From: Patescibacteria group bacterium | GTDB lineage: Bacteria; Patescibacteriota; Microgenomatia; 0-14-0-10-38-17 | Direction of reading: 5' to 3' | Length of the DNA: 64,000 bases | Assembly (NCBI GenBank): GCA_050947035.1 | Contig: JBMNVW010000002.1 | Coordinates: 4,820 to 68,819 of the forward strand | Part shown: piece after piece, positions 2-24,067 of the stretch | Layout: each line of letters opens with the position of its first letter | How positions within the stretch are numbered: position 1 is the stretch's first letter | Notes under the pieces: model-generated | What the model was told of the DNA's origin: nothing | What the model saw: the letters and a program-made list of their open reading frames with translations, nothing else | Databases searched by the model: none | Program-made: the position numbers and the translations under genes

Positions 2-3000
2 ACTTCCCCCACCTTCAAGTTACAAATTGCCGGATCCGGCGATTTACTTTCCATTGGCGATACGGCCGGGAACACCTTCTTCTCGGTGACTGATTCTTTA
101 ATTACCTCAAATCTTCCCCATACCTTTACCTCAAGTGGGGATGTGAGTATGGCCTATGATTTAATTTTTACTAATCAAACTTCTGCCAAGATTGAATCAT
201 ACGGCCCCTTCTCTATTATTGCCGGGGAGTCTCATGAATCAAACAATCTGACTCTAAAGACTTACAATGCCGGAAAGTTAATTGTTGATTCGGCTAACTT
301 CTGGGTAGATAGTGCTAATGTCGGTATCGGTACTACCGACCCCGCCTACACCCTGGATGTTAATGGCGATATTGGTATTGCTTCTGGGTCTGATTTGTAT
401 CTTGGTGGAATAGGGTTGGGTGGGACCGGCGGAGCCGGGTTGGTAGGATTTGATAATGCCGGACTAAGTTATGTGACCTCCTCGACGGTTCAAGGAGGAA
501 TAGAAGATTTGGATGGGGCTATCAGTAGTGTTTCTGGGGAGATTAGATGGACCATGGATGGAGATAGTGGTACTCCTCAGATTGTGGGGGCGGGCCAAAC
601 CGCCAGTTGGGTGGGGGGAACGGGAATTAGTACAACAGTGGGAGCCGACAGACAACTAACCATTGACTTTGATACGACCTGGGGAGATGGTCGATACATT
701 CAAGATCAGTTTTCTTCGGCCCAAGATGCTGATTTCTGGATTGATGGAGTTGGGTTAGTGGGCACCAGGTTGGGGGTGGGCGCCACTCACCCCTCCTACT
801 CTCTTTACACCACTGGCAACTTAGGGGTGGGAGGAACGGCTTACTTTGCTGGCAACGTCGGGGTGGGGACGACTTCGCCCTGGAATTTCTTGGATGTTTC
901 CACCGGTTCATCAACAAATACCACCGGTGTTATTGTCGGCGCCACGTCAGGTTCTTCGACAAATAACGATGCAACACTAATTGGCTTTCGGCTTCGTAAC
1001 ACTAACAATGGTTTCATGAACAGTTCTAATTTATACGATGCTGGCATAGCCGGTATCGTAAACGGAACAGGAGTAAATAGATCGGCATTAGCATTTTACA
1101 CACGTCAATCGTCAGCGGCGGTAGTAGAAAGAATGAGAATTGACTATTTGGGCTCCGTCGGCATTGGTACCACTGATCCTGCCGCCCTCCTCTCAGTCGG
1201 CGCCACCTCTCAATTCAGGGTTGATAGCAGTGGTGATATTACCCGGATTAAGAACCTGGCCTACTCTTGGCCATCAAGCCATACTGCTGATGGATTCTTA
1301 CAAGATGATGGTTCAGGCAACCTGGCTTGGACTACCATTGCTGGAGCGGGTGGAGTAACTGGAACTGGTACCCAAAACTATTTACCTATTTGGTTATCAG
1401 GCGGATCTAGTTTGGGAGATTCCTCTATTTATGAATCAGGCAATAATGTGGGAATTGGCGGAACGGCCCCTAGCACTTCTCCCTCCCTGTACGTGGGAGC
1501 AGATGGTAATGTGGGGATAGGAACGACGGGGCCGGGGGCAAAACTACATGTTCAATATCCAAGCTCAGGCGATATTATTTTTGACGCCGGTACTGGTGAT
1601 GGTGCCTCAGACATGAATATCCAATATGGTTACAACGGCTATGGCTGGTATTGGAAGTATTTAGGCAGTGGCTCTGGTGATAACAATGAATTACAGTTGT
1701 GGAGTGAGGGGGCGGGTAGTACTGATCAACAAGCATACGGAATAAAACAAAGCGGCAAAATGACTTTTTATCAGGATGCCACCTTTAATGGTGATATTTT
1801 AATGACCGATGACGATTACATCGGTATTAGCGGTGCAGAAAGAATCCAATTTGATACTGCCGGACATATTGAAATGATGGGGGCAAATGTGGGAATTGGG
1901 ACGACGGAGCCGCTAACTAAACTAGATATAAGAGATACAAGTCCCAAAATACATCTTTATGACTCCACAGCGCAAACCCAAACAAATTACCTGCTTGGTT
2001 CAATTGTAGCTAGTAACGCCTATACTCCATCTATAGATCGCACAGCCGCTAGTATTGATTTTTATTCCAATGCATCTCAATGGTTTAAGGGCGAGATTGT
2101 TTTTAAAACTAACAACTCAGATAGTACCGCTAATGCGGCTGTGGAAAGGGTTAGGATAAATGCGGCAGGCAACGTCGGCATCGGCACCAGCAGTCCCTCT
2201 GGAGCCCTGCAAGTAGTTGATGATGAGGTGCGAATTGGCAGTGGGGGGACGATAAATTATGCTACCGGGGATGGGGATCTTTACGTCCAAGATGATCTGG
2301 AAGTGGATGGAATAATTTATGGCACAATCGAAGGTTCATTTACCCCTTCCGGTGACTTAGACATGAATGAACACATTATCACTAATATCGGCAATACCGG
2401 AACAGATTTTACTAGCGGCGGTGGATTAACCTTGGCTGGTGATTTAACTGTTTCCGGGGGTGATATTGCCTTGGGCACAACCAATATCTTCTCTGGTGGT
2501 GATACAACAAGCTTGAATAATATTGATGCTATCAATGCCACTACAGAAAGCACCCTAGAGGGGGCATTAGATTTAACTGGGAGAATCACAGGAACATTAA
2601 ATAGCAACTCTTTCACTGTTTCCACTGATTGGGGTGATGTTTCCACTGATGCTTCCGGCAATGTGCAAATTGACAGCAATGTGGTTGGGGCAACTGAAGT
2701 AGCCGATGATTCTCTTGATTTTGCTCAATTCGCTGACAGTATGAGCCTCGATAATTTAACTAAGATTGATCTTAGCTCCTATGACTTTGGCTTTTATGGA
2801 ACTGGCAATGTGGGGATTGGTACCACCACCCCTTCCTACAAACTAGACATAGCTGGCACTGGTACTCTCTTTAGAATTGCTTCAGGAGGAACTGACCTTT
2901 TTACTGTTACAGATTCACTGATTACCTCTAACCTACCCCATACCTTTACCTCCAGTGGGGATGTGAGTATGGCTTACAACCTTCTCTTTACTAATCCCGC

Positions 3001-6000
3001 TGCCTCTTATGTCCGCTCCTCTGCCCCGCTATATATTGAGGCCGGAGAAACCTATGGTTCTTCAAATCTAACCTTGAGAACTTATAACACTGGCGATATT
3101 ATTTTAGAAAGCGCTAATCTCTGGGCCGACGGGTCAAGTGTCGGCATCGGCACCACTGATCCTTCTCAAGAGCTACATGTAAATGGAGATATCAGAGTTA
3201 CCGGTGGGTATTATGATTCCGAAAACAGTATTGGCTCCAACGGCGATGTCTTAACTTCCACTGGAGTGGGAACAACCTGGTCGTCTGTTTCTGATTTATC
3301 GGTTGGTAATGCCGATACTCTAGATACTCTAGATTCAACTGATTTCTTAAGAGCCACTGCTTCTGATACCTTTGAAGCTGGTAATACCCTAACTATCAAC
3401 GGAGCTTTGGATGTTAATGGGGCAGTAACTTTGGGTGATGGTGGTGATGATATTTCTATTAATAGTGATGATTGGGATATCTCAAGTGCTGGGGTAGGGT
3501 CTGGCTTTACCCAATTTAATGTTGACAACCTAAGACTAGATGGTAATACGCTATCAGCTACTAATGCTTCTGGGCTATATCTTTATGATGATGGTTCAAA
3601 TGGAATCTTTATCGAGGATGGGGGGAACGTGGGGGTGGGGACAACAGGTCCGAACTCTTCTCTGCATGTTAATGGCATGATAACGACTAACTCTGGTTTC
3701 GGTCTTAGTTTCGCTAACTATCACAAAATTTATGAAAAATCGTATAGCGTGAGAACAAGCGATCCTGCCACCTTGGTTGACGAAAATGGAAGCCCATTTG
3801 ACGTGAATAAAAGTTATCGTGTTAGGGGCGTAGTAACTAGCACAGGGACACAAACAGGAGCTGTAGCTTACTTTTATGGCAATGGGTCATCTTTTAGCAT
3901 ATATAAAAACTACGAATCTGGTAATACTTCTAATCATATTGAATTTTACCTTGATTCCGGTACTCCGAAAGTGCGCCTTTTTGATCATACTAGTTTTTAC
4001 AACGTTTCTGTTTTGACAGAAGAAGTTATCAATAAAGGACGCATCGCAGGACCAGAAATGTTCATTTATGCATATGGCGGCGGCAACGTCGGCATCGGAA
4101 CGACGAATCCCGGATCTTACAAGCTAAACGTGGCTGGTAATACCTACATTGATGGGGCCCTAACTACTACCGGAGCCATAACCGCCCCAACTAGTACTAA
4201 TACTATTAATAACTTAGTAATTAACTCCGGGACAATTACCTCTGGCACCTGGCAAGCAACCGCCATTGCCCCTACCTATGGCGGCACTGGAGATAATACC
4301 TCTTCTACCACTGGCGTTCCTTACATTACCGCTGGTAATTGGCAGTATGAGTCGACCCTTGATGAAACTAGAGGTGGAACTGGTTTATCCTCCTACTCGA
4401 CTGGGGATTTGCTTTATGCTTCAGGAACCGATACTTTAGGCAATTTGGGTATTGGCACTACAGGCCAAATCTTGACTGTTTCTGGCGGAGTGCCGGTTTG
4501 GGCGGACTCTTCAGGATTAGGAACCGATGACCAAACCTTGGCAGAGGTATTAACAGAGGGTAATACTACTTCAGGAAACAATATTGTTATGAGTACTACT
4601 GATGAGTTAAGGTTCTATGATGATGATACTGATCAGCGAATCTATGCTAGTGCTGATGGTACTCTTAACATTGCCAGTACCAACCTGGCAATAGATACTA
4701 GCAGCTGGGATATTTCTACTGCCGGGGTAGGCTCTGGCTTTACCCAATTTAATGTTGACAACCTAAGACTAGATGGTAATACCCTATCAGCTACTAATGC
4801 TTCTGGGCTATATCTTTATGATGATGGTTCTAATGGAATCTTTATCGAGGATGGGGGGAACGTGGGGATTGGGACGACGGATCCGGGGGCAAAACTGGAA
4901 GTGGCCGGCAATTTAAAAGCCGATAAATTTGTTGACACCGCCGGCGGCGGCGCTTACTATCTTGACCCTGCCCACGGAACCATCTCACTTCTTACCGCCG
5001 GCAATGCCGGTATTGGCACTGTCAGCGCTGATTATAGATTAGATGTTCGGTCCGGAACCACAGACAATGTAGCAAAATTCTCCTCTTCTGATGATTTGGG
5101 TCAAATACTAATAGCCGATAATGATACCACCACCTATCTTGGCGCCAAAGACAGTAGGGCATTTTTGGGATCAAGCAGTGGTCTTTCGAGCAACAATTTA
5201 GTAATTAACAGCGATGGCAACGTTGGCATCGGGACGACCGATCCCTCATATGATCTCCACGTTGCTGGCGATTCCTACGCCAATAGATTTCTAGCTCCTA
5301 ACGGCACCCCGAGCAACCCTGTTTATTCCTTTTTTGCCAGCCCCACAACGGGTATTTTTAGAGGTTTTGCTATTAACGAAATAGGTTTTAGTAATTCCGG
5401 CAGCACCAGCATGTTGATCAATGCCGATGGCAACGTTGGCATTGGAACAACTGATCCTGATTATAATCTGGAAGTTTCCGGGACATTAGGAATTGGTTCT
5501 ACTGCTTATTTCGGCTCTTTCGTCGGCCTAGGGGTCGCTTCGCCCAACACAACCTTGCACGTCAAGGACACCCAGGACTATCAATTGCTGTTGCAAAATA
5601 ATGACAACACTACTGGGGACACCGCCGGCCTTCTCTTTAAAGTTGCTACTCTTGATACAGCAAACGCCAAGGGGGGAATTTTGTTTGAAAGGACAGGTTC
5701 CTACGGTCGAGGCAGTATTCATTTTGTTGCCAATAATGACGCCGCAAATAGTGACGCCGATCTTGATGATAAGGCAATGACCATTTATGCCGATGGTAAT
5801 GTTGGTGTCGGGACAACATCGGTTAATAGCCCTTTTGGTGTTTATGGACAAATAGCCTCTTTTTCTCACCCAACCGCCACCAGTGGTAATGTTGTCTCTA
5901 TTCAAGCTGGTACCGGCACAGGGGCCAGCGCCAACAGAATACGATATGGAGGATCTGGTAATAACAGTCATAATTTTGACATTCAGGGTCCAGGAGATAC

Positions 6001-8242
6001 CTTTCTCATATACGGCAGCACTTATGATTCAACTATCTACCGGGCCGGCTACAGCTCTAGTTGGAACACTCCTTCTGATCAGAGAATTAAGACTGAGATA
6101 AACACTCTTAGTGGTGCTCTAGAAAAAATTACTCAGCTAAATCCAGTTACATTTAAGTGGAAAGATGACTATCGAAATAGTATTAATACCAATCTAAAAG
6201 ACATAAATTACGGCTTTATTGCTCAAGAGGTCCAACGGGTCATGCCCCACATGGTAACAATAAAAGACTCACTTAGCTACGGTGACACCACCATTGAAGA
6301 CTTCTTAAATTTAGACACCAGCGATCTCACCCCCTACATAGTCAAGGCAATTCAAGAACAACAAAGCCAAATAAACAATATTTCTCAAAAAGTAACTCTG
6401 CTCAACAATGACCTTTCTGTTACCAATTCTGGCGATCTAAATATCGAAATTGTCGGCGATGATTACCAAGTTCATAACACCTCTACTAATAAAATTGTTA
6501 ATCGGATAGGCTCCTTCGGGGAAACAGTAATTGCTAAGGCTAGAGTCGGCCTAATCGAAACAACTAGCCTAATTGCCGATACGGTGACTACCCGCCGAGT
6601 TAAATCTGAAAAGCTTCTCTCCCCCATTATCGAGACGGAGGAAATCAGACTCAAAGCGCAAAATTCAAAACTCAAAACCACAACTCAAAACTCAAAATTA
6701 TCAATTGTTAATTCGGCCAACGAACCAACGGCTGAATTTGATACGGAAACTAAAACCACTACCCTATTTGGTGACTTAATAATAGAGCGCGGACTAAAGT
6801 CCGCTACTTCAGAATTTGAGAAAACTAAAAGCAAACAAGCCACTTTTGGCGATTTGCTGGCCCAAAACGTCGGCATCGGTCAATTAGAGGCCGAAAGTGT
6901 TAAAACCGAAGAACTAGACGTTGCCCAAGATGCCACTATCGCCGGCACTCTATATGTTGATCGGGTTGTGGCTCGAGATGGGGGCTTTGGCGAACTTTTG
7001 GCTAAAGACATTAGCATGGATAGTCTAAGATCAATTGTGAGGGAAGAAATGGAAAAGAACACTGAGAACACGAATAATATAAGCACTGAGGACACGAATG
7101 TAAGCACGAATGACACAGAAAATACAGATTCCGGATCGGAGTCCGGAATGACCGAGACCTCGGAGTCCGAAATGACGGATGAAGAGATGGATATTGAAAG
7201 TTTGTTAGCCGAAGTGGAGGGCTGGCTAAATCTAAACACGGATAGTGATTTAGTCGTTGGTGAAGAAACAGCCATCCCTGAAAATCAAATTAACGCCATT
7301 GCCGATAATTTTATTCATCAGGGAGATTTAACTATCTTGGGACAAACGACTGCCAATAACGCTCTAATTACTGGACAATTAATTATTGGCGATTTAACTT
7401 TGGCTGATAACAGTATTAGCAACCTTAACGGCAACCTCTATCTGCAAAAAGAAGGCTTGGGCGGTTTGGATGTTTTAAATGGCAAGTTTATGATTGATAC
7501 CGAAGGCAACGTTTTTATCGCTCAACACCTAACAGTTAGCGGTGATTTAATGGCCGGAAAAATTAAACCCAAAGAGGGAGAGGATTTGGTTTTGGATTTG
7601 ATTAATAGTGTGGGACAGGGAGAGGATGACAATGAGGACACGAATGGGGACACGAATCAAACGAACGATGAAGAAAATGACACTGAGGATACGAATATTA
7701 ATACGAATAACGCAGAGAACACGCTAGAAGAAACAGGGTTTGGGAAACTGCTCGTCAAAGGAGCCAATCAAGAAACAGTCGCTCAAATTGATGCTTCCGG
7801 TTCAGCTCAATTTGCCGGCACGGTTAGGGCTGATAGCCTGGCCATATCAAAACCGGAAAATAGTCAAGAAGACATTGTTATCGCCGCCTCAGAAAATTTT
7901 GACCAGGTTAACATCTGGGCCCCGGGGATTACCAGCAACGCTTCGGCCGGCCAGGCCAGTCTTCCTGTCGGTCAAACCGATTTAATTATTTACAACAACC
8001 GACTAGTTGATGAATCAATGGTTTATCTTACCCCTACCTCTGACACCCAAAACCAGGTTCTTTATGTTAAAGCGAAAGTAGCGAAAAAGAACACTGAAGA
8101 CACGAATGGGAACACAAATGACACAAATAGTAATACGAATATCGACACAAATGACACGAACAATGATAAGAGTTACTTTGTGGTGGGGATAAACCAGTCC
8201 ATTAACGAAGAGGTGAAATTTAATTGGTGGATAATAAACTAA
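2..8242 (+). CDS. Giant repetitive surface/tail-fibre-like protein, 5'-partial (reading frame open to window edge). It has many G(N)VGIGTT(D/S)P repeats and a C-terminal peptidase S74 intramolecular chaperone domain, followed by acidic (D/E)TN-rich tracts.
   Basis: There is no in-frame stop from position 2 to the listed start at 86, which is a GTG. The upstream translation TSPTFKLQIAGSGDLLSIGDTAGNTFFSVTDSLITSN parallels the internal repeat around nt 2830-2930. More than 20 NVGIGTT motifs are present. The S74 signature SDQRIKTEINTL...NPVTFKWKDD...YGFIAQEVQ lies at about nt 6060-6400. Confidence 0.8.
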   Translation, partial: TSPTFKLQIAGSGDLLSIGDTAGNTFFSVTDSLITSNLPHTFTSSGDVSMAYDLIFTNQTSAKIESYGPFSIIAGESHESNNLTLKTYNAGKLIVDSANFWVDSANVGIGTTDPAYTLDVNGDIGIASGSDLYLGGIGLGGTGGAGLVGFDNAGLSYVTSSTVQGGIEDLDGAISSVSGEIRWTMDGDSGTPQIVGAGQTASWVGGTGISTTVGADRQLTIDFDTTWGDGRYIQDQFSSAQDADFWIDGVGLVGTRLGVGATHPSYSLYTTGNLGVGGTAYFAGNVGVGTTSPWNFLDVSTGSSTNTTGVIVGATSGSSTNNDATLIGFRLRNTNNGFMNSSNLYDAGIAGIVNGTGVNRSALAFYTRQSSAAVVERMRIDYLGSVGIGTTDPAALLSVGATSQFRVDSSGDITRIKNLAYSWPSSHTADGFLQDDGSGNLAWTTIAGAGGVTGTGTQNYLPIWLSGGSSLGDSSIYESGNNVGIGGTAPSTSPSLYVGADGNVGIGTTGPGAKLHVQYPSSGDIIFDAGTGDGASDMNIQYGYNGYGWYWKYLGSGSGDNNELQLWSEGAGSTDQQAYGIKQSGKMTFYQDATFNGDILMTDDDYIGISGAERIQFDTAGHIEMMGANVGIGTTEPLTKLDIRDTSPKIHLYDSTAQTQTNYLLGSIVASNAYTPSIDRTAASIDFYSNASQWFKGEIVFKTNNSDSTANAAVERVRINAAGNVGIGTSSPSGALQVVDDEVRIGSGGTINYATGDGDLYVQDDLEVDGIIYGTIEGSFTPSGDLDMNEHIITNIGNTGTDFTSGGGLTLAGDLTVSGGDIALGTTNIFSGGDTTSLNNIDAINATTESTLEGALDLTGRITGTLNSNSFTVSTDWGDVSTDASGNVQIDSNVVGATEVADDSLDFAQFADSMSLDNLTKIDLSSYDFGFYGTGNVGIGTTTPSYKLDIAGTGTLFRIASGGTDLFTVTDSLITSNLPHTFTSSGDVSMAYNLLFTNPAASYVRSSAPLYIEAGETYGSSNLTLRTYNTGDIILESANLWADGSSVGIGTTDPSQELHVNGDIRVTGGYYDSENSIGSNGDVLTSTGVGTTWSSVSDLSVGNADTLDTLDSTDFLRATASDTFEAGNTLTINGALDVNGAVTLGDGGDDISINSDDWDISSAGVGSGFTQFNVDNLRLDGNTLSATNASGLYLYDDGSNGIFIEDGGNVGVGTTGPNSSLHVNGMITTNSGFGLSFANYHKIYEKSYSVRTSDPATLVDENGSPFDVNKSYRVRGVVTSTGTQTGAVAYFYGNGSSFSIYKNYESGNTSNHIEFYLDSGTPKVRLFDHTSFYNVSVLTEEVINKGRIAGPEMFIYAYGGGNVGIGTTNPGSYKLNVAGNTYIDGALTTTGAITAPTSTNTINNLVINSGTITSGTWQATAIAPTYGGTGDNTSSTTGVPYITAGNWQYESTLDETRGGTGLSSYSTGDLLYASGTDTLGNLGIGTTGQILTVSGGVPVWADSSGLGTDDQTLAEVLTEGNTTSGNNIVMSTTDELRFYDDDTDQRIYASADGTLNIASTNLAIDTSSWDISTAGVGSGFTQFNVDNLRLDGNTLSATNASGLYLYDDGSNGIFIEDGGNVGIGTTDPGAKLEVAGNLKADKFVDTAGGGAYYLDPAHGTISLLTAGNAGIGTVSADYRLDVRSGTTDNVAKFSSSDDLGQILIADNDTTTYLGAKDSRAFLGSSSGLSSNNLVINSDGNVGIGTTDPSYDLHVAGDSYANRFLAPNGTPSNPVYSFFASPTTGIFRGFAINEIGFSNSGSTSMLINADGNVGIGTTDPDYNLEVSGTLGIGSTAYFGSFVGLGVASPNTTLHVKDTQDYQLLLQNNDNTTGDTAGLLFKVATLDTANAKGGILFERTGSYGRGSIHFVANNDAANSDADLDDKAMTIYADGNVGVGTTSVNSPFGVYGQIASFSHPTATSGNVVSIQAGTGTGASANRIRYGGSGNNSHNFDIQGPGDTFLIYGSTYDSTIYRAGYSSSWNTPSDQRIKTEINTLSGALEKITQLNPVTFKWKDDYRNSINTNLKDINYGFIAQEVQRVMPHMVTIKDSLSYGDTTIEDFLNLDTSDLTPYIVKAIQEQQSQINNISQKVTLLNNDLSVTNSGDLNIEIVGDDYQVHNTSTNKIVNRIGSFGETVIAKARVGLIETTSLIADTVTTRRVKSEKLLSPIIETEEIRLKAQNSKLKTTTQNSKLSIVNSANEPTAEFDTETKTTTLFGDLIIERGLKSATSEFEKTKSKQATFGDLLAQNVGIGQLEAESVKTEELDVAQDATIAGTLYVDRVVARDGGFGELLAKDISMDSLRSIVREEMEKNTENTNNISTEDTNVSTNDTENTDSGSESGMTETSESEMTDEEMDIESLLAEVEGWLNLNTDSDLVVGEETAIPENQINAIADNFIHQGDLTILGQTTANNALITGQLIIGDLTLADNSISNLNGNLYLQKEGLGGLDVLNGKFMIDTEGNVFIAQHLTVSGDLMAGKIKPKEGEDLVLDLINSVGQGEDDNEDTNGDTNQTNDEENDTEDTNINTNNAENTLEETGFGKLLVKGANQETVAQIDASGSAQFAGTVRADSLAISKPENSQEDIVIAASENFDQVNIWAPGITSNASAGQASLPVGQTDLIIYNNRLVDESMVYLTPTSDTQNQVLYVKAKVAKKNTEDTNGNTNDTNSNTNIDTNDTNNDKSYFVVGINQSINEEVKFNWWIIN

Positions 8243-8274: not shown

Positions 8275-8643
8275 ATGACCAATGATCAAAAAAAATATGA
8301 CTTGGAGGAAAGAACTGCTCGCTTTGCTGAAAATGTCATTCGATTCTGTAAAACAATCAAAATTAACGACATCAATCGACCTTTAATTAGTCAATTAATT
8401 AGGGCTAGTACTAGCATAGCCGCTAATTACTGCGAGGCTGATGATGCTGAATCAAGGAATGATTTTAAACATAAGATTGGTATTTGCAAAAAAGAGGCCA
8501 GAGAATCTAAAAGTTGGTTAAGAATGCTAGTCGTTGCTAATCCGGAAACAAAAAAAGAAGCAAGAAGGCTTTGGCAGGAAGCGAAAGAGCTTCACTTAAT
8601 CTTTAACGCTATCACTCATTCCACTAACAAAAACAAAAAATAA
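8275..8643 (+). CDS. Four-helix-bundle protein of the 23S rRNA intervening-sequence protein family, located outside the rRNA genes.
   Basis: The protein is 122 aa and its sequence (ERTARFAENVIRFCKTI...ASTSIAANYCEA...KEARESKSWLRM) is typical of this family. It is flanked by inverted AT-rich arms: aaatttctaattactaatttctaat upstream and attagtaattagtaattagaaatt downstream. Confidence 0.7.
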   Translation: MTNDQKKYDLEERTARFAENVIRFCKTIKINDINRPLISQLIRASTSIAANYCEADDAESRNDFKHKIGICKKEARESKSWLRMLVVANPETKKEARRLWQEAKELHLIFNAITHSTNKNKK

Positions 8644-8748: not shown

Positions 8749-10950
8749 TTATTCTGTCGGGGTGGTTTCTGGGGTTTCCTCTACCTCTTCTTCCGGAGAA
8801 ATAATTTCCTCTTCGGTCGACTCTTCTAAAACCGGCTCAGGAGGAGCAATGTCTTCTTCAGGTAAATCAACTGGTTCAAATTGGGGTTCGGGAAGAGCTT
8901 GAGGTGGTTCCAGCTGTTCGTTCACTTCTTCTTCACCTTCAACCGGCTCTTGTTGAGGCAAACGGTCTTTAATTTGTTCTAAATCTTGCTGAACTCGATC
9001 AAAATCGGCTGAACCCGGCTCAACCAAAGAAAGCACCGTTTGTAATTGCAAGGCGGCGTCAGTCCATTTTTCTTGCTGGACATAAGCGGCGGCCAAATTG
9101 TAATGAGCGTTGGCATGGTCGGGTTTTAAATTAACCGCTGTTTCAAACTGCCGCTGGGCCAACTCAAAATTACCCAAAGCAAAATAAAGCCCACCCAGCT
9201 CTACCCGTAAATTAGGATTAACCGGATCCAAGGCAATTGCTTGACTTAGTGACTCAATTGCCCATTGCTCGGCCTCTTGGGCGACACCAATAATTTGCCG
9301 ATAAACATCAGCCAGACTTGCCCAATTGTTAGACCAAAAAGGGTTAATCGCTACCGCGTTTTTGGCTTCCCTAATAGCCTGCTGAATAAGAATAGCAATT
9401 TGTTGTTGGTCTTGTTCAGTCAAATTTTCATTTTGAGAAAAAGTACCAGCTAGAGCAAGATTGGTTTGAGCATAACCAAGACGGTAAGTATCAGAATGAG
9501 GATTTTTTTCTAGGGCTTCAATCTGCCAATTATAAGCATTACCGCCTTCACCTCGATTAAAAGCGGCTACGGAACGAGCAAATAAAACATCAGCCCAAGC
9601 TGCTCGACCATACCAAAAACCAGAAAACAATAAAGCACCAGCTAAAATTATTAACAAAATATAGCGATTTATCTCTAGCTTTGGCCTAACTTCTCCTAAA
9701 CCAACCCCGCTACTCTCGTCCGACAAGCCAACCAAACTTAGCAAAACAAAGAAAACTAGCCACAGACTAATGTCAAAGGGAACAAAAAAAGCAATAACTA
9801 ACAATAGCAAAACCAAAATTTCCGGACGAGCATTTATTATCCGGTTATCAGCATCTTTAAGCTTTCGCCAAATAGATACGGCTAAGCCCGAAAAAGCCAA
9901 TAGTCCTAATAGGCCAACCTCAGTTAAAAGATTTAGATAATGTCCAAAAGAGTTAGCAAAGTAAATTGCCCAAGCCGAGGTGTTATTAACCGTTACAGGA
10001 CGAAAACGAGCGTAAGCGGTTCGAAAATTGCCCGGACCAACACCAAAAATAGCCCCAACAAAACTTTTAAAATTCTCTACGGCCACAATCCAAGCATTTT
10101 GCAAGCCAATTAAAACCGGCTCTGACTCTAGTAAGACAACCACTCCCATTACCACCCCTAAAGCCAAAATGATCAATAGGGCCAGCAAGCCGATTAGGCT
10201 GGTTAATTTAAAGTCTTTTTTTATCAATCTTAATAAGGCCAATAAAACATAAACGGCCGCCAAAACAATTAAAACAATTGTTGTTAAGATTGACCCTGTT
10301 GGCGTCCAAGTGTTAATAGAAAAAATCTCCCAAGTAAAAAACTTAGCCAAAAAGCCAGTATATTGAAAAACTGTTAACAGCGCTAAGACTACTGCCGAAG
10401 CGGTTAAGGCGCCGAACATCAATCTTTGTGTCTTTTTGGCTTCCTTGCCCTCTCCCCTAACCTGCTTAATTAACAGCATTAACAGGAAACCGGCCAAAAC
10501 GACGGCCGTTGTTTTAGAAAAAGCATTAATCCTGGCCGAAACATTGGGTTGTAAAAAAGAGGAAATAACAAAAGCCAAAACCAAAAGTAAGCCAAAAACT
10601 AAAACTTTTTTATTGTCAAAAAAAATCGTTTGGTTATTATTTTCGCTTTTACCAAGGACGACCGGCAATAAAAAAGCCACCCAACCAAGCAAAACACCCA
10701 AAATAAAAAGTATGGTCTTGGGTAAAACGTAAACACTAAATAAAGAAGGAATAAAGATGAGAGGAACTAAAAAAGTAATTAAGGCTAACCAATATTTTAA
10801 GTATTTCATTTTTGAAGAAGACTTTATCTTTGAGGCAGTTCTGGCAGACTTGACACCCAGGGTGTCATTAAGTGTTTCCCCCATTAGCTTAATACTATAA
10901 CATTTTTGATGGGGCGTCAATAATATATAAACCCAAAGCACAAAATCCAA
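8749..10950 (-). CDS. Polytopic membrane protein with an O-antigen-ligase-like (Wzy_C) domain, C-terminal TPR repeats, and an acidic proline/glutamate-rich tail.
   Basis: Multiple transmembrane segments; the motif FGHYLNLLTEVGLLGLLAF fits the Wzy_C H-N-x-x-L...E-x-G pattern; TPR-like repeats (AHYNLAAAYVQQEKWTDA) near the C-terminus. Confidence 0.6.
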   Translation of the reverse strand: MDFVLWVYILLTPHQKCYSIKLMGETLNDTLGVKSARTASKIKSSSKMKYLKYWLALITFLVPLIFIPSLFSVYVLPKTILFILGVLLGWVAFLLPVVLGKSENNNQTIFFDNKKVLVFGLLLVLAFVISSFLQPNVSARINAFSKTTAVVLAGFLLMLLIKQVRGEGKEAKKTQRLMFGALTASAVVLALLTVFQYTGFLAKFFTWEIFSINTWTPTGSILTTIVLIVLAAVYVLLALLRLIKKDFKLTSLIGLLALLIILALGVVMGVVVLLESEPVLIGLQNAWIVAVENFKSFVGAIFGVGPGNFRTAYARFRPVTVNNTSAWAIYFANSFGHYLNLLTEVGLLGLLAFSGLAVSIWRKLKDADNRIINARPEILVLLLLVIAFFVPFDISLWLVFFVLLSLVGLSDESSGVGLGEVRPKLEINRYILLIILAGALLFSGFWYGRAAWADVLFARSVAAFNRGEGGNAYNWQIEALEKNPHSDTYRLGYAQTNLALAGTFSQNENLTEQDQQQIAILIQQAIREAKNAVAINPFWSNNWASLADVYRQIIGVAQEAEQWAIESLSQAIALDPVNPNLRVELGGLYFALGNFELAQRQFETAVNLKPDHANAHYNLAAAYVQQEKWTDAALQLQTVLSLVEPGSADFDRVQQDLEQIKDRLPQQEPVEGEEEVNEQLEPPQALPEPQFEPVDLPEEDIAPPEPVLEESTEEEIISPEEEVEETPETTPTE

Positions 10951-11747: not shown

Positions 11748-12845
11748 TTATTGTAAGTAACTTAATGGATTAACATTACCCGAAGGGGTGCGAATCTCAA
11801 AATGAAGATGAGTTCCGGTAGAACGACCCGTTGATCCCATTCTACCCAAAACCTGACCCCGCAAAACCTGCTGACCATTATTAACTGCCACTGAAGAAAG
11901 GTGGGCATAAAGAGTCTTAACACCATCGCCATGATCAATAACGACATAAATTCCATAGCCTCGAGAAGGAGCAGTCCAGCCAGCATCAACTACTGTCCCA
12001 CCTCGAGAAGCAACTATCGCCGGCCCTGAAGGATCGGCAATATCAATTGCCTTATGATACCAATGATATCCTTGGGAAATTCTACCGGTAGTAGGCCAAA
12101 TATATTCTCCTTGGGCTTGAGCGATATAATCGGGAACCTGAGGAATAGTCTCTGAGGGGGTAGCTGGCGGCGACCAAGGCTTAGCCTTAGGCACCACTCC
12201 ACCAGGAACAATCAAGTCTTGGCCAACCGCTAAAGCAAAAGTCTCATCATTAATAAAAGTATTAAAAGGGAAATCAACAATGGCCTGAGGATCAACACCA
12301 TAATTTTTGGCAATTGAATAAACTGTCTCTCCCCTTTTCACTGTATGCAAAACGCCAGTCTCGGGTAAAATTTTCAAAGTCTGGCCTACCTTAACATCAT
12401 CAACCGATTTTAAATCATTAGCCCACCTAATTGTGTCCAGGGAAACATTAAATTTTTGCGCAATTGAAGAAACAGTATCGCCCTCGACAACAGTATATTC
12501 GACCACTCCGCCTCTTCGACCAGAATTATTATTTTCTACCCCCAAAACAGAAAAATTAAAGCTAGCATCTCCTAAAACGGCCCCATCCTGGCTTATTGCC
12601 TGATCAATTCTATCAGGAGAAAAAAGGGGTGAAATAGCCACTCCTAAAATAACCATTAGACCAACACCAAAATGGCTGACAGGGCGAGAGAGGCGTCCCC
12701 GCTTTCGATAAAGAAAATAGGCTCCTCGAGACTTATTTTCATCTAAAAAAGAAGTTAAGAGCAATAAGCGCTTTTTAAAAAAAACCAACCAGGCTTTTAA
12801 AAAAAGATTAAGGTTCTCTGAAAGGGATTTTTTTTGGCCAATCAC
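11748..12845 (-). CDS. LysM-domain M23-family metallopeptidase (peptidoglycan endopeptidase).
   Basis: Two LysM-like segments (YTVVEGDTVSSIAQKF, HTVKRGETVYSIAKNY) and the M23 motifs HKAIDIA...GSTGRSTGTHLHFEIR. An N-terminal transmembrane segment is present. Confidence 0.8.
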   Translation of the reverse strand: MIGQKKSLSENLNLFLKAWLVFFKKRLLLLTSFLDENKSRGAYFLYRKRGRLSRPVSHFGVGLMVILGVAISPLFSPDRIDQAISQDGAVLGDASFNFSVLGVENNNSGRRGGVVEYTVVEGDTVSSIAQKFNVSLDTIRWANDLKSVDDVKVGQTLKILPETGVLHTVKRGETVYSIAKNYGVDPQAIVDFPFNTFINDETFALAVGQDLIVPGGVVPKAKPWSPPATPSETIPQVPDYIAQAQGEYIWPTTGRISQGYHWYHKAIDIADPSGPAIVASRGGTVVDAGWTAPSRGYGIYVVIDHGDGVKTLYAHLSSVAVNNGQQVLRGQVLGRMGSTGRSTGTHLHFEIRTPSGNVNPLSYLQ

Positions 12846-13060: not shown

Positions 13061-14269
13061 TTATTTCCCTAACTGAGAAAGAAAATCTTCATTGCTCTTA
13101 GTCTTTTTTAATTTTTCCAAAAATACCTCTGTCCTCTCCTCATCCCCTAAAAGATCAATCATCTTGCGCATGGTAACAATTTTAGGATAAATTTTTTCTC
13201 CAAATAAGAGCTCTTCTTTTCTGGTTCCTGACCGCTGAATATCAATAGCCGGGAAAACCCTTCTATCGGCCAAGCGCCGATCTAAATGAAGCTCCATATT
13301 ACCAGTCCCCTTAAATTCTTCATAAATAAGATCGTCCATTCGCGAACCGGTATCCACTAAGCAGGTACCCACCACCGTTAAGCTGCCACCATCTTCTATA
13401 TTTCTGGCCGCACCAAAATAGCGTTTAGCCGGAAAAAGAGCGGCCGGATCAAAACCACCCGATAAGGTTCTTCCCGAGGTGGGAATTGATAAATTGTAGG
13501 CTCTGGCTAATCTAGTGACTGAATCCATCAAAATAAACACATCTTTGCCCATTTCTACTAATCTTTTGGCTCGCTCCAAAGAAACTTCTGCTGCTAAAGT
13601 TTGATTTTCTGGTGGTTCATCAAAATTTGAAGCGATTACTTCTCCTCTGTCTTCGGTTACTTCTTTAACATGACGACGAATATCAGTTACTTCTTCTGGT
13701 CGTTCACCAATCAAAACCGCCATCAAATGAAAATCGGGAAAATTAGTGGCCAAACCGGTCATCATATCTTTTAAAAGCCAAGTTTTACCAGCCTTAGGGG
13801 GAGAAACAATTAAACCTCGCTGGCCATTGCCAATTGGGGCGACTAAATCAATTATTCTAGTGGAAAGAATATCTTTTTTGGTCTCCATTCTCAACCATTT
13901 ATCAGGAAAAATTGGCAACAAATCATCAAAGTGAGGCCGCTGGCCGAGATCAGATTCCTCAACCGAAACCCCATTAACCTTTTCCACTCGCAATAATCCG
14001 TAATAACGCTCTTTTTCTTTGGGTTCTCTAACTTGACCCCCCACTATATCTCCCGGCCGAAGCTTAAAACGATAGATTTGAGAAGAGGAAATATAAATGT
14101 CTTGAGAAGAAGGAACAAAATTAGGCCGCAAAAAGCCATGGTCATCATCGGCCCGAACATCCAAAATTCCCTCCTTGTAATCGGTAGGAAGATCGGCGTC
14201 AGGAATTCTCATTTTTGAGAGACCATTAGAATCTCTTTGATGCTTGTCTGGTGAAGAATTATTAGTCAT
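13061..14269 (-). CDS. rho: Transcription termination factor Rho.
   Basis: Walker A motif GLIVSPPKAGKT, the Rho RNA-binding/ATPase architecture, and a C-terminal sequence typical of Rho. Confidence 0.9.
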   Translation of the reverse strand: MTNNSSPDKHQRDSNGLSKMRIPDADLPTDYKEGILDVRADDDHGFLRPNFVPSSQDIYISSSQIYRFKLRPGDIVGGQVREPKEKERYYGLLRVEKVNGVSVEESDLGQRPHFDDLLPIFPDKWLRMETKKDILSTRIIDLVAPIGNGQRGLIVSPPKAGKTWLLKDMMTGLATNFPDFHLMAVLIGERPEEVTDIRRHVKEVTEDRGEVIASNFDEPPENQTLAAEVSLERAKRLVEMGKDVFILMDSVTRLARAYNLSIPTSGRTLSGGFDPAALFPAKRYFGAARNIEDGGSLTVVGTCLVDTGSRMDDLIYEEFKGTGNMELHLDRRLADRRVFPAIDIQRSGTRKEELLFGEKIYPKIVTMRKMIDLLGDEERTEVFLEKLKKTKSNEDFLSQLGK

Positions 14270-20061: not shown

Positions 20062-20182
20062 TGCTTTGGCTATGACCTATTTTCTCGCCTCCTTGCGGAA
20101 GACAATATCGTCAGCGCTATCGCGTTTCACTTCTGAGTTCGGAATGGAATCAGGTGGTACCACGACGCTCCAATAACCAAAG
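20062..20182 (-). rRNA. rrf: 5S rRNA.
   Basis: The reverse complement reads ...CCACCTGATTCCATTCCGAACTCAGAAGTGAAACGCGATAGCGCTGACGATA..., matching the conserved 5S core. Confidence 0.8.
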
Positions 20183-21075
20183 CAAGTTTTATTTTAACAA
20201 AAATTTTCTTTTAGTAAAGCTTAATCTACTCTTTGTTAGAACAAGAATGTTTTTTTCTCTTTTTTTTAGTCATTTAGGAATTAAGTTTTTTCACATCCAA
20301 ATTCGATCGATTAGTACTGGTCAGCTGAATTCGTTGCCGAACTTACACTTCCAGCCTATCAACCAGGTAGTCTTCCTGGGATCTAAGACTCCTCATCTTG
20401 GAGTAGGCTTCCCGCTTGAGATGCTTTCAGCGGTTATCCATTACAAACGTAGCTACCCAGCTTGCCGCTGATGCGACAACTGGCCCACCAGAGGTTTGTC
20501 CATCCTGGTCCTCTCGTACTGAGGACAGATCTCCTCAAGAGTCAAAACGATTACTGCGGATAGAGACCGAGCTGTCTTACGACGCTCTGAACCCAGCTCA
20601 CGTAGGATTTTAATGGGCGAACAGACCAACCCTTGGAGACTTCTTCATCTCCAGGATATCCTGAGCCGACATCGAGGTCGCGAACTGGCCCGTAGATGTG
20701 TACTCTCGGGACCAACCACGCTGTTATCCCCGGGGTAGCTTTTATCCGTTAAGCCCTGGCTTCATCCATAGAAGCACAGGGGATCACTAAGACCTGCTTT
20801 CGCACCTGCTCGACCCGCCGGTCTTGCAGTCAAGCTGGCTTGTGCCTTTACACTTTCCTCCCGATTTCCATCCGGGATAAGCCAACCTTTGTGCGCTCGC
20901 GTTACTTTTTAGCAAGCGACTGCCCCAGTCAAACTACCCACCAGGCACTGTTCCTAAGTTCGTATCCAGAACTTCCAGGTTAGAACTGAATTTAATGAAG
21001 AGAGGTATTCCACTGGCGACCGAAGTCTCCCTCCTATTCTCGACAGTCATTAAATACAATTCAATGCCAAGTTGT

Positions 21076-21106
<31 letters not shown>

Positions 21107-21427
21107 AGTAATTAGGCCGCATCTTCACAGCCATTTCAATTTCGCCGAGTAGAGGTTTGTAGACAGTTGTTCGGTCGTTGGGCCTTTCATACAGGTCGGA
21201 ACTTACCCGACAAAGGACTTCGCTACCGTAGAACAGTTAGAGTTACTGCTGCCGTTCACCGGGGCTTCAATTCTCCGCCCGCATTTTTTCCGAAGAAAAA
21301 ATGAGAACAAAGTCATTTAACCTTCCGGCACTGGGCAGGCTTCAGCCCCTATACCTCCTCTTTTGGAGTTTGCAGAGACCTGTGTTTTTGGTAAACAGTC
21401 GCCGAACAATCTTTAGCTGAGACCCAT

Positions 21428-21631
21428 CTCGCCCACAGGACGAGAAAATCCTAAAGGATTAAACTCTAAATTCTAATTTCTAAAATCCAAACAATAACTA
21501 AATTCTAAATTCCAATGTTCCAAACAGATTATTTGTTTCGAATTTGGAATTTGGAAAATTAGGATTTGTTTGGGATTTCGGATTTCGGATTTAGAATTTT
21601 CTAGAATTTCCTTGTCCTATGGACAAGACAG
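21428..21631. repeat. IVS-like insertion (a) in the 23S. It is AT-rich, with ttctaaattccaa-type repeats, and is capped by the hairpins ctcgcccacaggacgag and cttgtcctatggacaag.
   Basis: It aligns at about 85-90% with the tRNA-Ala/23S spacer element at 24073-24249. Confidence 0.7.
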
Positions 21632-22177
21632 GCAGGGCATCTTGTGACCTTACGCCCAGCTTGTTTGCCGAGTTCCTTAAACCTCTTTCTCTCGCTCGCC
21701 TTGGTCTTCTCGACCTACCCACCTGTGTTGGTTCTTGGTACGATTTTTGTAAACTCTCACTGCGACACTTTTCTCGGAAGATAAAATCAGCTAATTGAAT
21801 CAAAAAAGATTCTCTTCATCGTAAGCTTGACATTAACGAACCGGCGGATTTGCCTACCAGTCCTGCCTTGCTACTTAAACGACAGCAACATCAATCGCTG
21901 CGCTAGCATTATCTGTCTCCGTCATGACCCAGTTAATAACGATTTTACAAAAGTACAGGAATATCAACCTGTTATCCATCCACTACCCAAGTAAAACTTG
22001 GCTCATGTTAGGATCGACTAACCCCCTGACGACGAACGTTGCAGGGGAAACCTTAGGTTTTCGGCGGTCTGGATTCTCACCAGACTATTTGCTACTCATG
22101 CCAGCATTCTCACTTCCGAACGCTCCAATAAACCTCACAGTTTATCTTCACCGCCTTCGGAACGCTCCCCTACCACC

Positions 22178-22316
22178 TCGCCCCCTGGGCGAGAAACTCC
22201 AAATATTCTAAATCCAAAATCCAAATAATATTGATCTGATAGGTCTTATTGGACCTATGTTTGTGGAAATTGAAAATTTGAAATTTGAAATTTCTTGTCC
22301 AAAAGACAAGGTCTGG
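22178..22316. repeat. IVS-like insertion (b) in the 23S, at the approximate helix-45 position. It contains the palindrome tctgataggtcttattggacc.
   Basis: AT-rich gaaatttgaaattt repeats end in the hairpin cttgtccaaaagacaag. Confidence 0.65.
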
Positions 22317-22945: not shown

Positions 22946-23098
22946 CCGTTCTCCGAACGGGAAGCTCCAATTTCCAATTAAGCCAATTTCCAAACAAATT
23001 CCAAATAACAAATCTTCAAAATTGAAAATTAAAGCATTTTTAGAATTGATTGGTCATTGGTAATTGGTGGATTGAAAATTCCTGTTCGAAGAACAGGC
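22946..23098. repeat. IVS-like insertion (c) in the 23S, at the approximate helix-25 position.
   Basis: It begins with cccgttctccgaacggg, contains AT-rich ccaatttccaa repeats, and ends in the hairpin cctgttcgaagaacagg. Confidence 0.65.
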
Positions 23099-23990: not shown

Positions 23991-24067
23991 TGGTGGAGCT
24001 AACCGGAATCGAACCGGTGACCTCCACATTGCAAATGTGGCGCTCTATCCAGCTGAGCTATAGCCCC
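23991..24067 (-). tRNA. tRNA-Ala (TGC).
   Basis: The reverse complement is GGGGCTATAGCTCAGCTGGATAGAGCGCCACATTTGCAATGTGGAGGTCACCGGTTCGATTCCGGTTAGCTCCACCA. It has the G3:U70 pair, anticodon TGC, and an encoded CCA. Confidence 0.85.

What the first reader, a model, noticed from the sequence alone, without database searches (positions are those of the whole stretch)
2..8242. Giant (>2,746 aa, 5'-truncated) tail-fibre-like repeat protein with an S74 auto-chaperone module and an unusually long post-chaperone extension
The reading frame is open to the window edge, and the translated upstream bases mirror an internal repeat, so the protein is larger than shown. It is built from dozens of G(N)VGIGTT(D/S)P...L(H/D)V modules of the kind seen in phage tail-fibre / chaperone-of-endosialidase proteins. 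The signature SDQRIKTEI...NPVTFKWK...YGFIAQEVQ places a peptidase-S74 intramolecular chaperone at about nt 6060-6400. Unlike canonical tail spikes, where S74 is the extreme C-terminus, about 600 further residues follow. They include three (D/E)TN acidic tracts (7060-7200, 7620-7720, 8090-8175) and predicted beta-rich blocks. No phage structural genes flank it. In an ultra-small, probably episymbiotic CPR cell this is a strong candidate for a host-attachment fibre whose C-terminal part is released or rearranged by autoproteolysis.
Basis: partly seen in the sequence, partly recalled or inferred. Interest (0 to 1): 0.75.

Follow-up and report, generated by a model that had tools for sequence, protein, structure and literature searches.

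The report
CPR giant fibre with self-cleaving joint
This is the last 2,746 residues of a 4,329-residue chromosomal surface-fibre gene of a tiny CPR bacterium, in which a phage-type self-cleaving chaperone domain joins a variable fibre to a conserved 600-residue tail found on similar giant proteins across a large group of these bacteria.

Summary
The frame 2-8242 (+) is open to the window edge. Its 2,746 residues are identical to the C-terminus of NCBI MGI6278309.1, a 4,329-aa "tail fiber domain-containing protein" from a Patescibacteria bacterium.

Pfam Peptidase_S74 hits residues 2025-2085 (E 2e-16). The Ser2025/Lys2030 dyad is intact, and about 610 residues follow the chaperone.

The extension is not an oddity of this gene. 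It is a conserved 400-650-aa C-terminal module ending in NWWIIN:
- It matches 1,854 protein clusters, always at the extreme C-terminus of proteins up to 7,082 aa.
- It is preceded by either S74 or the phi29-gp12-type (Peptidase_G2) self-cleaving auto-chaperone.
- No relative was found in 2.9 million viral contigs.

The gene sits at a conserved chromosomal position (giant gene, 10-TM/TPR protein, LysM-M23, Rho) in about 45 of 74 species. Complete relatives begin with an integrase-SAM-like domain and one membrane helix.

Best reading: a vertically inherited, membrane-anchored trimeric surface fibre. The phage-derived domain nucleates folding and then cuts the variable fibre from the conserved module. 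Cleavage, trimerisation and the module's role are inferred. I rate it a new variant of a known kind, of moderate to high interest.

The parts
2..8242 (+). 3' part (2,746 codons plus stop) of a giant gene. The full product is 4,329 aa (NCBI MGI6278309.1).
   Evidence: ORF and translation. The C-terminal 2,746 aa of P0048 are 100% identical.
2..6073 (+). G/S/T-rich fibre region with no Cys. It carries 14 strict / 20 loose G(N)VGIGTT(D/S)P...L(H/D)V motifs and recent internal duplications (86-176 ~ 2906-2996; 3473-3652 ~ 4706-4885).
   Evidence: Motif positions. DNA repeats. PHROGs tail-fibre families phrog_9942 (E 8e-29) and phrog_18345 (E 1e-25). Composition, and no TM segment.
6074..6403 (+). 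Peptidase_S74 intramolecular chaperone domain. Ser2025 is the codon at 6074-6076 and Lys2030 the codon at 6089-6091. The C-terminal helix YIVKAIQEQQSQINNISQKVTLL ends at 6403.
   Evidence: Pfam PF13884 at E 2.1e-16. Aligns to the MYRF ICA domain (7dc3) and to a phage long tail fibre (6f45), with SDQRIK on SDRRIK. Ser is 100% and Lys 97% conserved in 38 family members.
6413..7051 (+). Conserved C-terminal module, blocks A and B (LSVTNSGDL ... RIGSFGE ... SPIIETEEI ... FGDLLAQNVGIG ... ATIAGTLYVDRVVARDGGFGELLAK). No Pfam or PHROG match.
   Evidence: Alignments A1/A2. Profile search. Pfam and PHROGs find nothing. AF2 confidence is low.
7052..7192 (+). Acidic (D/E)TN low-complexity linker 1. It is variable or absent in relatives.
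7193..7621 (+). Module block C: a helix (IESLLAEVEGW) followed by a beta-helix-like repeat region (LTILGQTT..ITGQL.IGDL.LADNSI...LYLQKEGLGGLDVL.GKFMID..GNVFIA.HLTVSGDL).
   Evidence: Alignment. AF2 pLDDT is 60-75 with short regular strands.
7619..7732 (+). Acidic (D/E)TN low-complexity linker 2.
7736..8239 (+). Module block D. It contains the terminal beta-sandwich domain (about 7892-8239), ending in the near-invariant FNWWIIN (8219-8239). Acidic tract 3 (8084-8170) is a loop insertion within the domain.
8275..8643 (+). 23S_rRNA_IVP-family gene, a synteny marker next to the giant gene.
   Evidence: Pfam PF05635 at E 8e-15. Syntenic in L002, L037, L044 and L050.
8749..10950 (-). Protein of 733 aa with about 10 TM helices and C-terminal TPR repeats. 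It is the conserved neighbour of the giant gene.
   Evidence: Pfam TPR families. TM segments. A homologue lies adjacent in about 45 of 74 species loci.
11748..12845 (-). LysM + M23 peptidoglycan peptidase, part of the conserved synteny.
13061..14269 (-). Rho termination factor, part of the conserved synteny. It marks the locus as core chromosome.

Best explanation
This is a core chromosomal gene of a Microgenomates-group CPR (Patescibacteria) bacterium. It encodes a giant cell-surface fibre, probably trimeric.

The fibre body is built from phage-tail-fibre-like G(N)VGIGTT repeats. The S74 domain is an internal, self-cleaving trimerisation and folding joint. By analogy with phage K1F endosialidase and the T5 pb1 fibre, three chains would associate at this domain. 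It would nucleate C-to-N folding of the upstream fibre. The Ser2025-Lys2030 dyad would then cut the chain at Ser2025.

The cut would separate two parts:
- a lineage-variable fibre, which in complete relatives is held in the membrane by an N-terminal integrase-SAM-like domain plus one TM helix;
- a conserved C-terminal module of about 720 aa (chaperone, beta-rich stalk, beta-helix-like block, terminal beta-sandwich ending NWWIIN).

I think the module is most likely a conserved assembly or envelope-docking pro-region, not the host-specific tip. On that view the mature, variable tip lies just upstream of Ser2025.

Shown: domain identities, conserved catalytic residues, family-wide architecture, synteny, absence from viral contigs. 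Inferred: trimerisation, cleavage, topology of this particular protein, and the fate and role of the module.
For: - **S74 identity.** Pfam hit at E 2e-16. It aligns to the MYRF ICA domain and to a phage tail-fibre chaperone, with SDQRIK on SDRRIK. Ser is 100% and Lys 97% conserved in 38 S74-bearing family members.
- **The module is a family.** The profile finds 1,854 clusters at E<=1e-3 and 390 at E<=1e-30. Matches are always at the extreme C-terminus of proteins up to 7,082 aa, and 114 of the 150 best cover the whole module.
- **Two interchangeable junction domains.** The junction domain, 330-800 aa from the C-terminus, is either S74 (about 40 proteins) or a domain homologous to the phi29 gp12 auto-chaperone. 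The latter matches PDB 3gqh at E 6.6e-8, and Pfam Peptidase_G2 in 9 of 21 members (best E 1.2e-8). The cleavage-site Asp and the Glu (E695Q in the 3suc chain) are invariant. Two unrelated self-cleaving chaperones at one position argue that cleavage or folding there is the selected function.
- **Junction swapping.** The closest relatives of the module (60-66% identity) carry different junction types. Sequence upstream of the junction does not align.
- **Cellular and vertically inherited.** The order giant gene, TM/TPR protein, LysM-M23, Rho is kept in about 45 of 74 species loci. No relative was found in 2.9 M viral contigs, and PHROGs finds nothing for the module. The window is housekeeping chromosome.
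- **Membrane anchor in relatives.** Complete relatives have an N-terminal Phage_int_SAM-like segment (E about 1e-6) and a single TM helix at about residue 75-135.
- **The terminal domain works on its own.** The same terminal beta-sandwich ends a small (about 405 aa) TM+TPR protein next to the giant gene in other genomes. It therefore functions on a short tether at the cell's own surface.
Against: - The N-terminus of this protein as deposited (MGDSSIYES...) has no SAM-like segment or TM helix. I could not read the upstream DNA. Its anchoring is therefore inferred from relatives only.
- No experiment or multimer model shows trimerisation or cleavage.
- The AF2 monomer model is poor for most of the module (mean pLDDT 50), and Foldseek against the PDB gave nothing significant.
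- High conservation could also reflect a conserved host ligand such as peptidoglycan.
Confidence: 0.55

Rival explanations
1. The conserved C-terminal module is the functional distal end, a small tailspike-like adhesin or enzyme. After S74 or G2 cleavage it stays non-covalently attached, or is only 'rearranged'. The module, not the fibre, then contacts the host cell. This is.
Against: The module is the most conserved part across many candidate phyla, while the region upstream of the junction varies and is swapped. Receptor-binding tips usually show the opposite pattern. In every characterised S74 or G2 system the part after the cut is released (established knowledge of K1F endosialidase, T5 pb1 and phi29 gp12). 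The same terminal domain also sits on a short membrane-tethered TPR protein. No catalytic motif or Pfam match was found.
Confidence: 0.25
2. It is an envelope-building structural protein (S-layer-like or wall-spanning spike) with no role in host attachment. The C-terminal module docks onto the cell's own wall or onto the neighbouring 10-TM/TPR protein.
For: Synteny is conserved with cell-envelope genes: LysM-M23, the 10-TM/TPR protein and, further along, LytR-CpsA-Psr. One copy was returned for nearly every genome that has it. The terminal domain is shared with a small membrane TPR protein.
Against: A self-cleaving joint would detach the fibre from a wall-docked module. The extreme length and sequence variability of the fibre are more typical of interaction surfaces. 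No S-layer or wall-binding domain (SLH, LysM, CWB) is detected in the protein.
Confidence: 0.12
3. It is a phage or prophage tail-fibre gene, or a recent phage-derived insertion.
For: PHROGs tail-fibre families match the repeat region and the S74 region. PGAP names it 'tail fiber domain-containing protein'.
Against: Every flanking gene I annotated in the 56 kb downstream of the gene is a housekeeping gene. The locus is syntenic across about 45 species-level genomes. The C-terminal module has no relative in 2.9 M viral contigs or in PHROGs. Relatives carry an N-terminal TM anchor. At 4,329 aa it far exceeds the PHROGs tail-fibre models it matches (956-1,178 positions).
Confidence: 0.03
4. It is a polymorphic-toxin-like delivery protein, with the C-terminal part a toxin or effector released by autoproteolysis.
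For: The general architecture fits: a giant repeat protein with a self-cleaving domain ahead of a C-terminal module.
Against: The C-terminal module is conserved rather than polymorphic. It is beta-rich and repetitive, with no enzymatic Pfam match. No small immunity-like gene follows it; the next gene is 23S_rRNA_IVP.
Confidence: 0.03

Closest known systems
C-terminal intramolecular chaperone domain (Peptidase S74 / CIMCD) of phage K1F endosialidase and the T5 L-shaped tail fibre pb1
   Same: The domain is homologous (Pfam E 2e-16) and carries the Ser-x4-Lys dyad. It follows a long repetitive fibre. The expected roles, trimer nucleation and self-cleavage at the Ser, are the same.
   Different: In phages the domain is the extreme C-terminus, and only about 100-150 aa are released. 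Here about 610 further conserved residues follow. The gene is cellular, syntenic and vertically inherited. The protein is 4,329 aa.
Auto-chaperone of the phi29 / GA-1 pre-neck appendage (tailspike) gp12, Pfam Peptidase_G2 (PDB 3gqh, 3suc)
   Same: Sister proteins at the same locus (for example P0002-P0005, L002, L003) carry this domain exactly where the window protein carries S74. The cleavage-site Asp and the Glu are invariant.
   Different: It is not present in the window protein itself. In phi29 the domain is C-terminal and is released, whereas here it is internal.
MYRF (myelin regulatory factor) ICA domain
   Same: It is an S74-type domain used by a cellular, non-viral protein at an internal position, where cleavage separates two functional halves. 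It is the best PDB sequence match (7dc3, E 4e-4).
   Different: In MYRF a TM helix follows the domain, and cleavage frees an N-terminal transcription factor in the cytoplasm. Here no TM helix follows. In relatives the TM helix is N-terminal, so the domain is extracellular.
Phage tailspike C-terminal beta-sandwich (K1-lyase C-terminal domain) and PPC / collagen-binding jelly-roll domains
   Different: There is no sequence-level match in Pfam or PHROGs. The near-invariant C-terminal FNWWIIN signature is specific to the CPR family. The scores are modest and the model is a low-confidence monomer.

Membership tests
Peptidase S74 / intramolecular chaperone of endosialidase (PF13884) | Profile match above the curated cut-off | tested here: met
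   60.4 bits against a cut-off of 22, E 2.1e-16, aa 2025-2085.
Peptidase S74 / intramolecular chaperone of endosialidase (PF13884) | Catalytic Ser-Lys dyad (Ser, then Lys five residues on) at the start of the domain | tested here: met
   S2025-D-Q-R-I-K2030 aligns with SDRRIK of PDB 6f45 and SDERLK of 8jov. Ser is 100% and Lys 97% conserved in 38 family members.
Peptidase S74 / intramolecular chaperone of endosialidase (PF13884) | Domain sits at the extreme C-terminus, so only the chaperone is released | tested here: not met
   610 aa follow the chaperone. In 32 of 40 unrelated S74 proteins no more than 31 aa follow.
Peptidase S74 / intramolecular chaperone of endosialidase (PF13884) | Trimerisation-dependent autoproteolysis actually occurs | not testable with these tools
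   Needs expression and mass spectrometry, or at least a multimer prediction. Only monomer AF2 was available.
Phage virion tail fibre / tailspike | Encoded among phage structural genes or in viral contigs | tested here: not met
   The flanks are housekeeping genes. Chromosomal synteny is conserved. The module is absent from viral contigs.
MYRF-like membrane-tethered ICA architecture | TM helix C-terminal to the ICA domain | tested here: not met
   No hydrophobic segment anywhere in the 2,746 aa (maximum 19-residue Kyte-Doolittle score 1.23).
CPR 'NWWIIN-module' giant fibre family (defined here; I found no published description) | Conserved 400-650-aa C-terminal module ending in (F/I)NWWI(I/V)N | tested here: met
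   The window protein is the source of the profile. 114 of the 150 best hits cover the whole module and end with the motif.
CPR 'NWWIIN-module' giant fibre family (defined here; I found no published description) | Self-cleaving auto-chaperone (S74 or G2) immediately upstream of the module | tested here: met
   S74 lies at aa 2020-2136, 610 aa from the end. The family range is 331-807 aa.
CPR 'NWWIIN-module' giant fibre family (defined here; I found no published description) | Synteny with the TM/TPR protein, LysM-M23 and Rho | tested here: met
   In the window these lie at 8749-10950, 11748-12845 and 13061-14269. The same order is found in L001, L002, L005, L010, L017 and others.
CPR 'NWWIIN-module' giant fibre family (defined here; I found no published description) | N-terminal integrase-SAM-like segment plus a single TM anchor | tested here: inconclusive
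   Present in about 30 full-length relatives. The deposited 4,329-aa product starts MGDSSIYES... and has neither. Upstream DNA was not obtainable.

The most novel reading that the evidence does not exclude
Microgenomates-group CPR bacteria share a previously undescribed, vertically inherited surface organelle. It is a single-copy giant fibre, membrane-anchored through an integrase-SAM-like domain and one TM helix. Two unrelated phage-derived self-cleaving chaperones (S74 or G2) are interchangeable cassettes within it. They join a fast-evolving, recombining fibre to an invariant tailspike-like NWWIIN module. That module works with the neighbouring 10-TM/TPR protein and the small TM-TPR-NWWIIN protein as a dedicated assembly or docking system for episymbiotic attachment.
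Probability: 0.35. Interest if true: 0.8.

Novelty: new variant of a known kind. Interest (0 to 1): 0.62.

Why it matters
How CPR (Patescibacteria) cells attach to and exploit their hosts is largely unknown, and almost none are cultured. This locus offers a concrete candidate that is conserved across the lineage.
- It is easy to recognise: the NWWIIN module, an S74 or G2 joint, and fixed synteny.
- It has a testable biochemical step: self-cleavage at one serine.
- It separates cleanly into a variable fibre, possibly set by host range, and a conserved assembly module.

It also shows cellular reuse of two different phage auto-chaperones at an internal position. The only well-known parallel is eukaryotic MYRF.

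Practically, the repeats explain why MAG contigs break inside this gene. Three relatives' contigs begin inside the homologous gene (L001, L002, L003).

Tried and rejected
- **Source contig.** An exact 60-mer from the window start was absent from genome contigs and metagenome contigs. The look-up of encoding contigs had no record for P0048. I therefore could not read the DNA upstream of the gene.
- **Annotation of the extension.** NCBIfam found nothing for the protein. Pfam and PHROGs found nothing for any block of the extension, nor for the TM part of the TPR neighbour. My impression that the neighbour looks like an O-antigen ligase rests only on the FGVGPGNFR motif and is unverified.
- **Structure.** AF2 monomer models of the 620-aa extension were poor: mean pLDDT 39 with 8 sequences and 50 with 22. 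Only the terminal beta-sandwich (about 90) and the beta-helix-like block (60-75) are usable. Foldseek against the PDB gave nothing significant (best E 0.16).
- **Literature.** Five full-text searches found no paper describing this family. The two papers I opened were not relevant.
- **Readings rejected.** Prophage tail fibre, because of synteny and absence from viral contigs. MYRF-like C-terminal membrane tether, because there is no TM helix. Polymorphic toxin, because the module is conserved and there is no immunity gene. A general C-terminal sorting signal like the T9SS CTD, because nearly every genome returned one giant-gene locus rather than many cargo proteins; this rests on a pattern-limited scan.
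Full report
**1. The observation**

The frame beginning at nt 2 is open to nt 8242: 2,746 codons plus a stop.
All 2,746 residues are identical to the C-terminal 2,746 residues of P0048. P0048 is NCBI MGI6278309.1, 'MAG: tail fiber domain-containing protein [Patescibacteria group bacterium]', 4,329 aa, on a 100,927-bp contig. The window removes 1,583 residues.
- The window start mirrors an internal repeat: 86-176 versus 2906-2996, 81% identical. A 180-nt stretch is duplicated at 93% identity (3473-3652 and 4706-4885).
- The G(N)VGIGTT(D/S)P...L(H/D)V motif occurs 14 times by a strict pattern and 20 times by a loose one in the window part. It occurs 35 times in the full protein.
- The fibre part is G/S/T-rich and has no cysteine. 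No hydrophobic segment occurs anywhere in the 2,746 residues.
- PHROGs tail-fibre families match it: phrog_9942 at E 8e-29, phrog_18345 at 1e-25 and phrog_5481 at 8e-21.

**2. The S74 domain**

- The only Pfam family found in either the window part or the full protein is Peptidase_S74, at aa 2025-2085 (nt 6074-6256), E 2.1e-16, 60.4 bits against a cut-off of 22.
- Against solved structures the region matches the MYRF ICA domain (7dc3, E 4e-4) and phage tail-fibre chaperones (6f45, 8jov). S2025-DQRI-K2030 lies on SDRRIK and SDERLK.
- In 38 related proteins with this domain, the Ser is invariant and the Lys 97% conserved.
- The domain's terminal helix ends at aa 2134 (nt 6403).

**3. The extension is a conserved module**

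About 610 residues follow the chaperone. This is unusual for S74 proteins in general. In 40 unrelated S74 proteins the domain ends within 31 aa of the C-terminus in 32 cases.

A search with the last 747 residues found close relatives (55-62% identity) only in Shapirobacteria/Microgenomates fragments. The alignment shows four conserved blocks separated by variable low-complexity linkers, and an invariant C-terminal ...FNWWIIN. Relatives have QDDG-, E- or PTPSP-rich tracts there, or nothing.

A profile of the module was scored against 1.84 billion representative proteins:
- 1,854 clusters matched at E<=1e-3, 1,173 at E<=1e-10 and 390 at E<=1e-30.
- The match is essentially always at the extreme C-terminus, in proteins up to 7,082 aa.
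- 114 of the 150 best hits cover the whole module.

The module has no Pfam or PHROG match. It has no relative in 2.9 million viral contigs.

**4. Two interchangeable self-cleaving joints**

In the 150 best relatives the domain just upstream of the module is one of two kinds:
- S74, in about 40 proteins;
- an unannotated domain with the motif (N)DLAE...G(V/I)(V/I)ST.PG...VALAGRVPVKV...GD.IT.S..PG.G.KA, in about 70 proteins.

The two are mutually exclusive apart from one protein that has both.

A profile of the second domain matches the C-terminal auto-chaperone of the phi29 pre-neck appendage protein gp12. The match to PDB 3gqh has E 6.6e-8, and that chain begins DFAEYFES. From memory of the phi29 gp12 literature, this is the N-terminus produced by self-cleavage; I did not check it here. 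Chain 3suc reads DFAQYFES, a Glu-to-Gln change that I recall as the uncleaved mutant. The domain also matches a tailspike 'chaperon domain D4'. Nine of 21 members hit Pfam Peptidase_G2, 'IMC autoproteolytic cleavage domain', with best E 1.2e-8. The Asp and Glu of DxAE are invariant.

The family therefore places either of the two known phage tailspike auto-chaperones at the same internal position. The closest relatives of the window's module (60-66% identity) differ in which one they carry: S74 in the window protein and P0001, G2 in P0002 and P0003. Sequence upstream of the junction does not align. The module is kept while the junction and fibre are exchanged.

**5. Cellular and vertically inherited**

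The window is ordinary chromosome. After the giant gene come:
- a 23S_rRNA_IVP gene;
- a protein with about 10 TM helices and TPR repeats;
- LysM-M23, Rho, RadA, ribosomal protein S1 and LytR-CpsA-Psr;
- an rRNA operon;
- two class-A PBPs, GAPDH, PGK and dnaN, with a GC-skew minimum near 62 kb.

Relatives P0007 and P0005 lie at the same locus in two Shapirobacteria genomes. Both are cut by the contig start.

A scan of one genome per GTDB species returned 74 loci. They come from Shapiro-, Gottesman-, Blackburn-, Woese-, Collier- and Pace-bacteria, Microgenomatus and 'Patescibacteria group' MAGs. Some records are labelled Gammaproteobacteria or Pseudomonadales, but their synteny and isolate names (for example HK-STAS-PATE-17) indicate that they are mislabelled CPR. 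In about 45 of the 74 loci the giant gene is followed by homologues of the same TM/TPR protein, LysM-M23 and Rho. Nearly every genome contributed one locus.

**6. The N-terminus, in relatives only**

Full-length relatives begin with a segment of about 50 aa that matches the second half of Phage_int_SAM models (E 4e-6 to 5e-5). A single TM helix follows at about residue 75-135, and then the fibre. One relative is named by PGAP 'phage integrase SAM-like domain-containing protein'.

The deposited product of this gene starts MGDSSIYES... inside a repeat and has neither feature. I could not obtain the upstream DNA. The gene may continue upstream, for example after a frameshift or a mis-assembled repeat, or it may lack the anchor.

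**7. Structure of the module**

Monomer AF2 models are poor overall: mean pLDDT 39 with 8 sequences and 50 with 22. Positions below are module (extension) residues, numbered from nt 6380.
- The last roughly 115 residues (nt about 7892-8239) form a beta-sandwich at pLDDT about 90. Acidic tract 3 is a disordered loop within it.
- Residues 300-400 form short regular strands at pLDDT 60-75, which looks like a beta-helix.
- Foldseek against the PDB gave nothing significant.
- BFVD gave 8 hits at E<=1e-3, including a 'K1 lyase C-terminal domain' protein.

These are fold-level hints only.

The same terminal sandwich (...F(K/N)WWIIN) ends a small TM+TPR protein of about 405 aa immediately downstream of the giant gene in several genomes (L001, L040, L052). 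That protein is absent from this window.

**8. Mechanism**

What follows from established knowledge of S74 domains (K1F endosialidase, T5 pb1, MYRF) and G2 domains (phi29 gp12):
- three chains associate at the domain;
- the domain nucleates folding of the upstream trimeric fibre;
- a built-in dyad cuts the chain at the domain's first residue;
- the downstream part is released.

The catalytic residues are conserved here, and two unrelated domains with this one shared activity substitute for each other. I therefore infer that cleavage and folding at Ser2025 is the selected function.

With an N-terminal anchor, the variable fibre would remain on the cell. The conserved part of about 720 aa, chaperone plus module, would be the separated piece. 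I favour the module being an assembly or envelope-docking pro-region (confidence about 0.55 for the whole picture), for two reasons:
- it is the conserved part, whereas the sequence next to the junction varies;
- its terminal domain also functions on a short membrane tether.

The main rival (about 0.25) is that the module is a retained, tailspike-like distal tip, which the fold hints favour. A purely structural envelope role (about 0.12), a prophage gene (about 0.03) and a toxin cassette (about 0.03) are less likely.

**9. Novelty**

The protein is already in NCBI with a generic PGAP name, and S74 domains in cellular proteins are known (MYRF and many bacterial entries). I found no description of the following in five full-text searches:
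- the family-wide architecture: SAM-like segment, TM helix, variable fibre, S74 or G2 joint, NWWIIN module;
- the interchangeability of the two auto-chaperones;
- the fixed chromosomal position across Microgenomates-group CPR.

The searchable library is incomplete. I rate this a new variant of a known kind, with interest 0.62.

Noticed in passing
window 20064-27238 (- strand): The rRNA operon has a 23S gene of 3,539 nt against a 2,925-nt model, so it carries an insertion of about 600 nt. A LAGLIDADG_3 homing-endonuclease-like ORF (25119-25787) sits in the spacer between 16S and tRNA-Ile, abutting the 16S 3' end. This fits the rRNA insertions described for CPR bacteria in PMC11270868, of which I read only the abstract.
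   Followed up: partly
window 8275-8643 (+): A stand-alone 23S_rRNA_IVP-family gene (PF05635) lies directly after the giant gene. The same gene is syntenic in L002, L037, L044 and L050.
   Followed up: partly
window 8749-10950 (-): A 733-aa protein with about 10 TM helices, a FGVGPGNFR motif and C-terminal TPR repeats. A homologue neighbours the giant gene in about 45 of 74 species loci. It could be a functional partner, for example a glycosylation or assembly factor. Pfam finds nothing in the TM part, so the O-antigen-ligase resemblance is only my recollection.
   Followed up: partly
L001 3382-4614; L040 7896-9125; L052 3830-5044: A small TM + TPR protein of about 405 aa ends in the same terminal beta-sandwich (...F(K/N)WWIIN) as the giant protein and is encoded immediately downstream of it. 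It is absent from this window.
   Followed up: partly
P0157 (3,870 aa relative): This is the one family member that carries both an S74 domain (aa 2968-3063) and a G2 domain (aa 3275-3376), in tandem ahead of the module.
   Followed up: no
L044 5579-10939 and L022 3026-7420: The stop-to-stop ORFs of these relatives begin with a segment (…WKKVHELKPG..IAV…WDEIVS…) that looks intein/Hint-like to me. This suggests an intein or a mis-set ORF start. I did not test it.
   Followed up: no
window 36067-44773 and 61563-62675: This stretch holds a Fic-domain protein, two class-A PBPs on opposite strands and a beta-lactamase-family protein. dnaN (61563-62675) coincides with the cumulative GC-skew minimum, so oriC is probably near the window's right end. 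Most called ORFs from 8.7 to 62 kb are on the minus strand, while the giant gene is on the plus strand.
   Followed up: no
loci L003, L011, L012, L017, L024, L061, L065 and others: Many public MAG records that carry this CPR-specific gene and synteny are labelled 'uncultured Gammaproteobacteria' or 'Pseudomonadales'. These are probably taxonomic mislabels in the source records.
   Followed up: no
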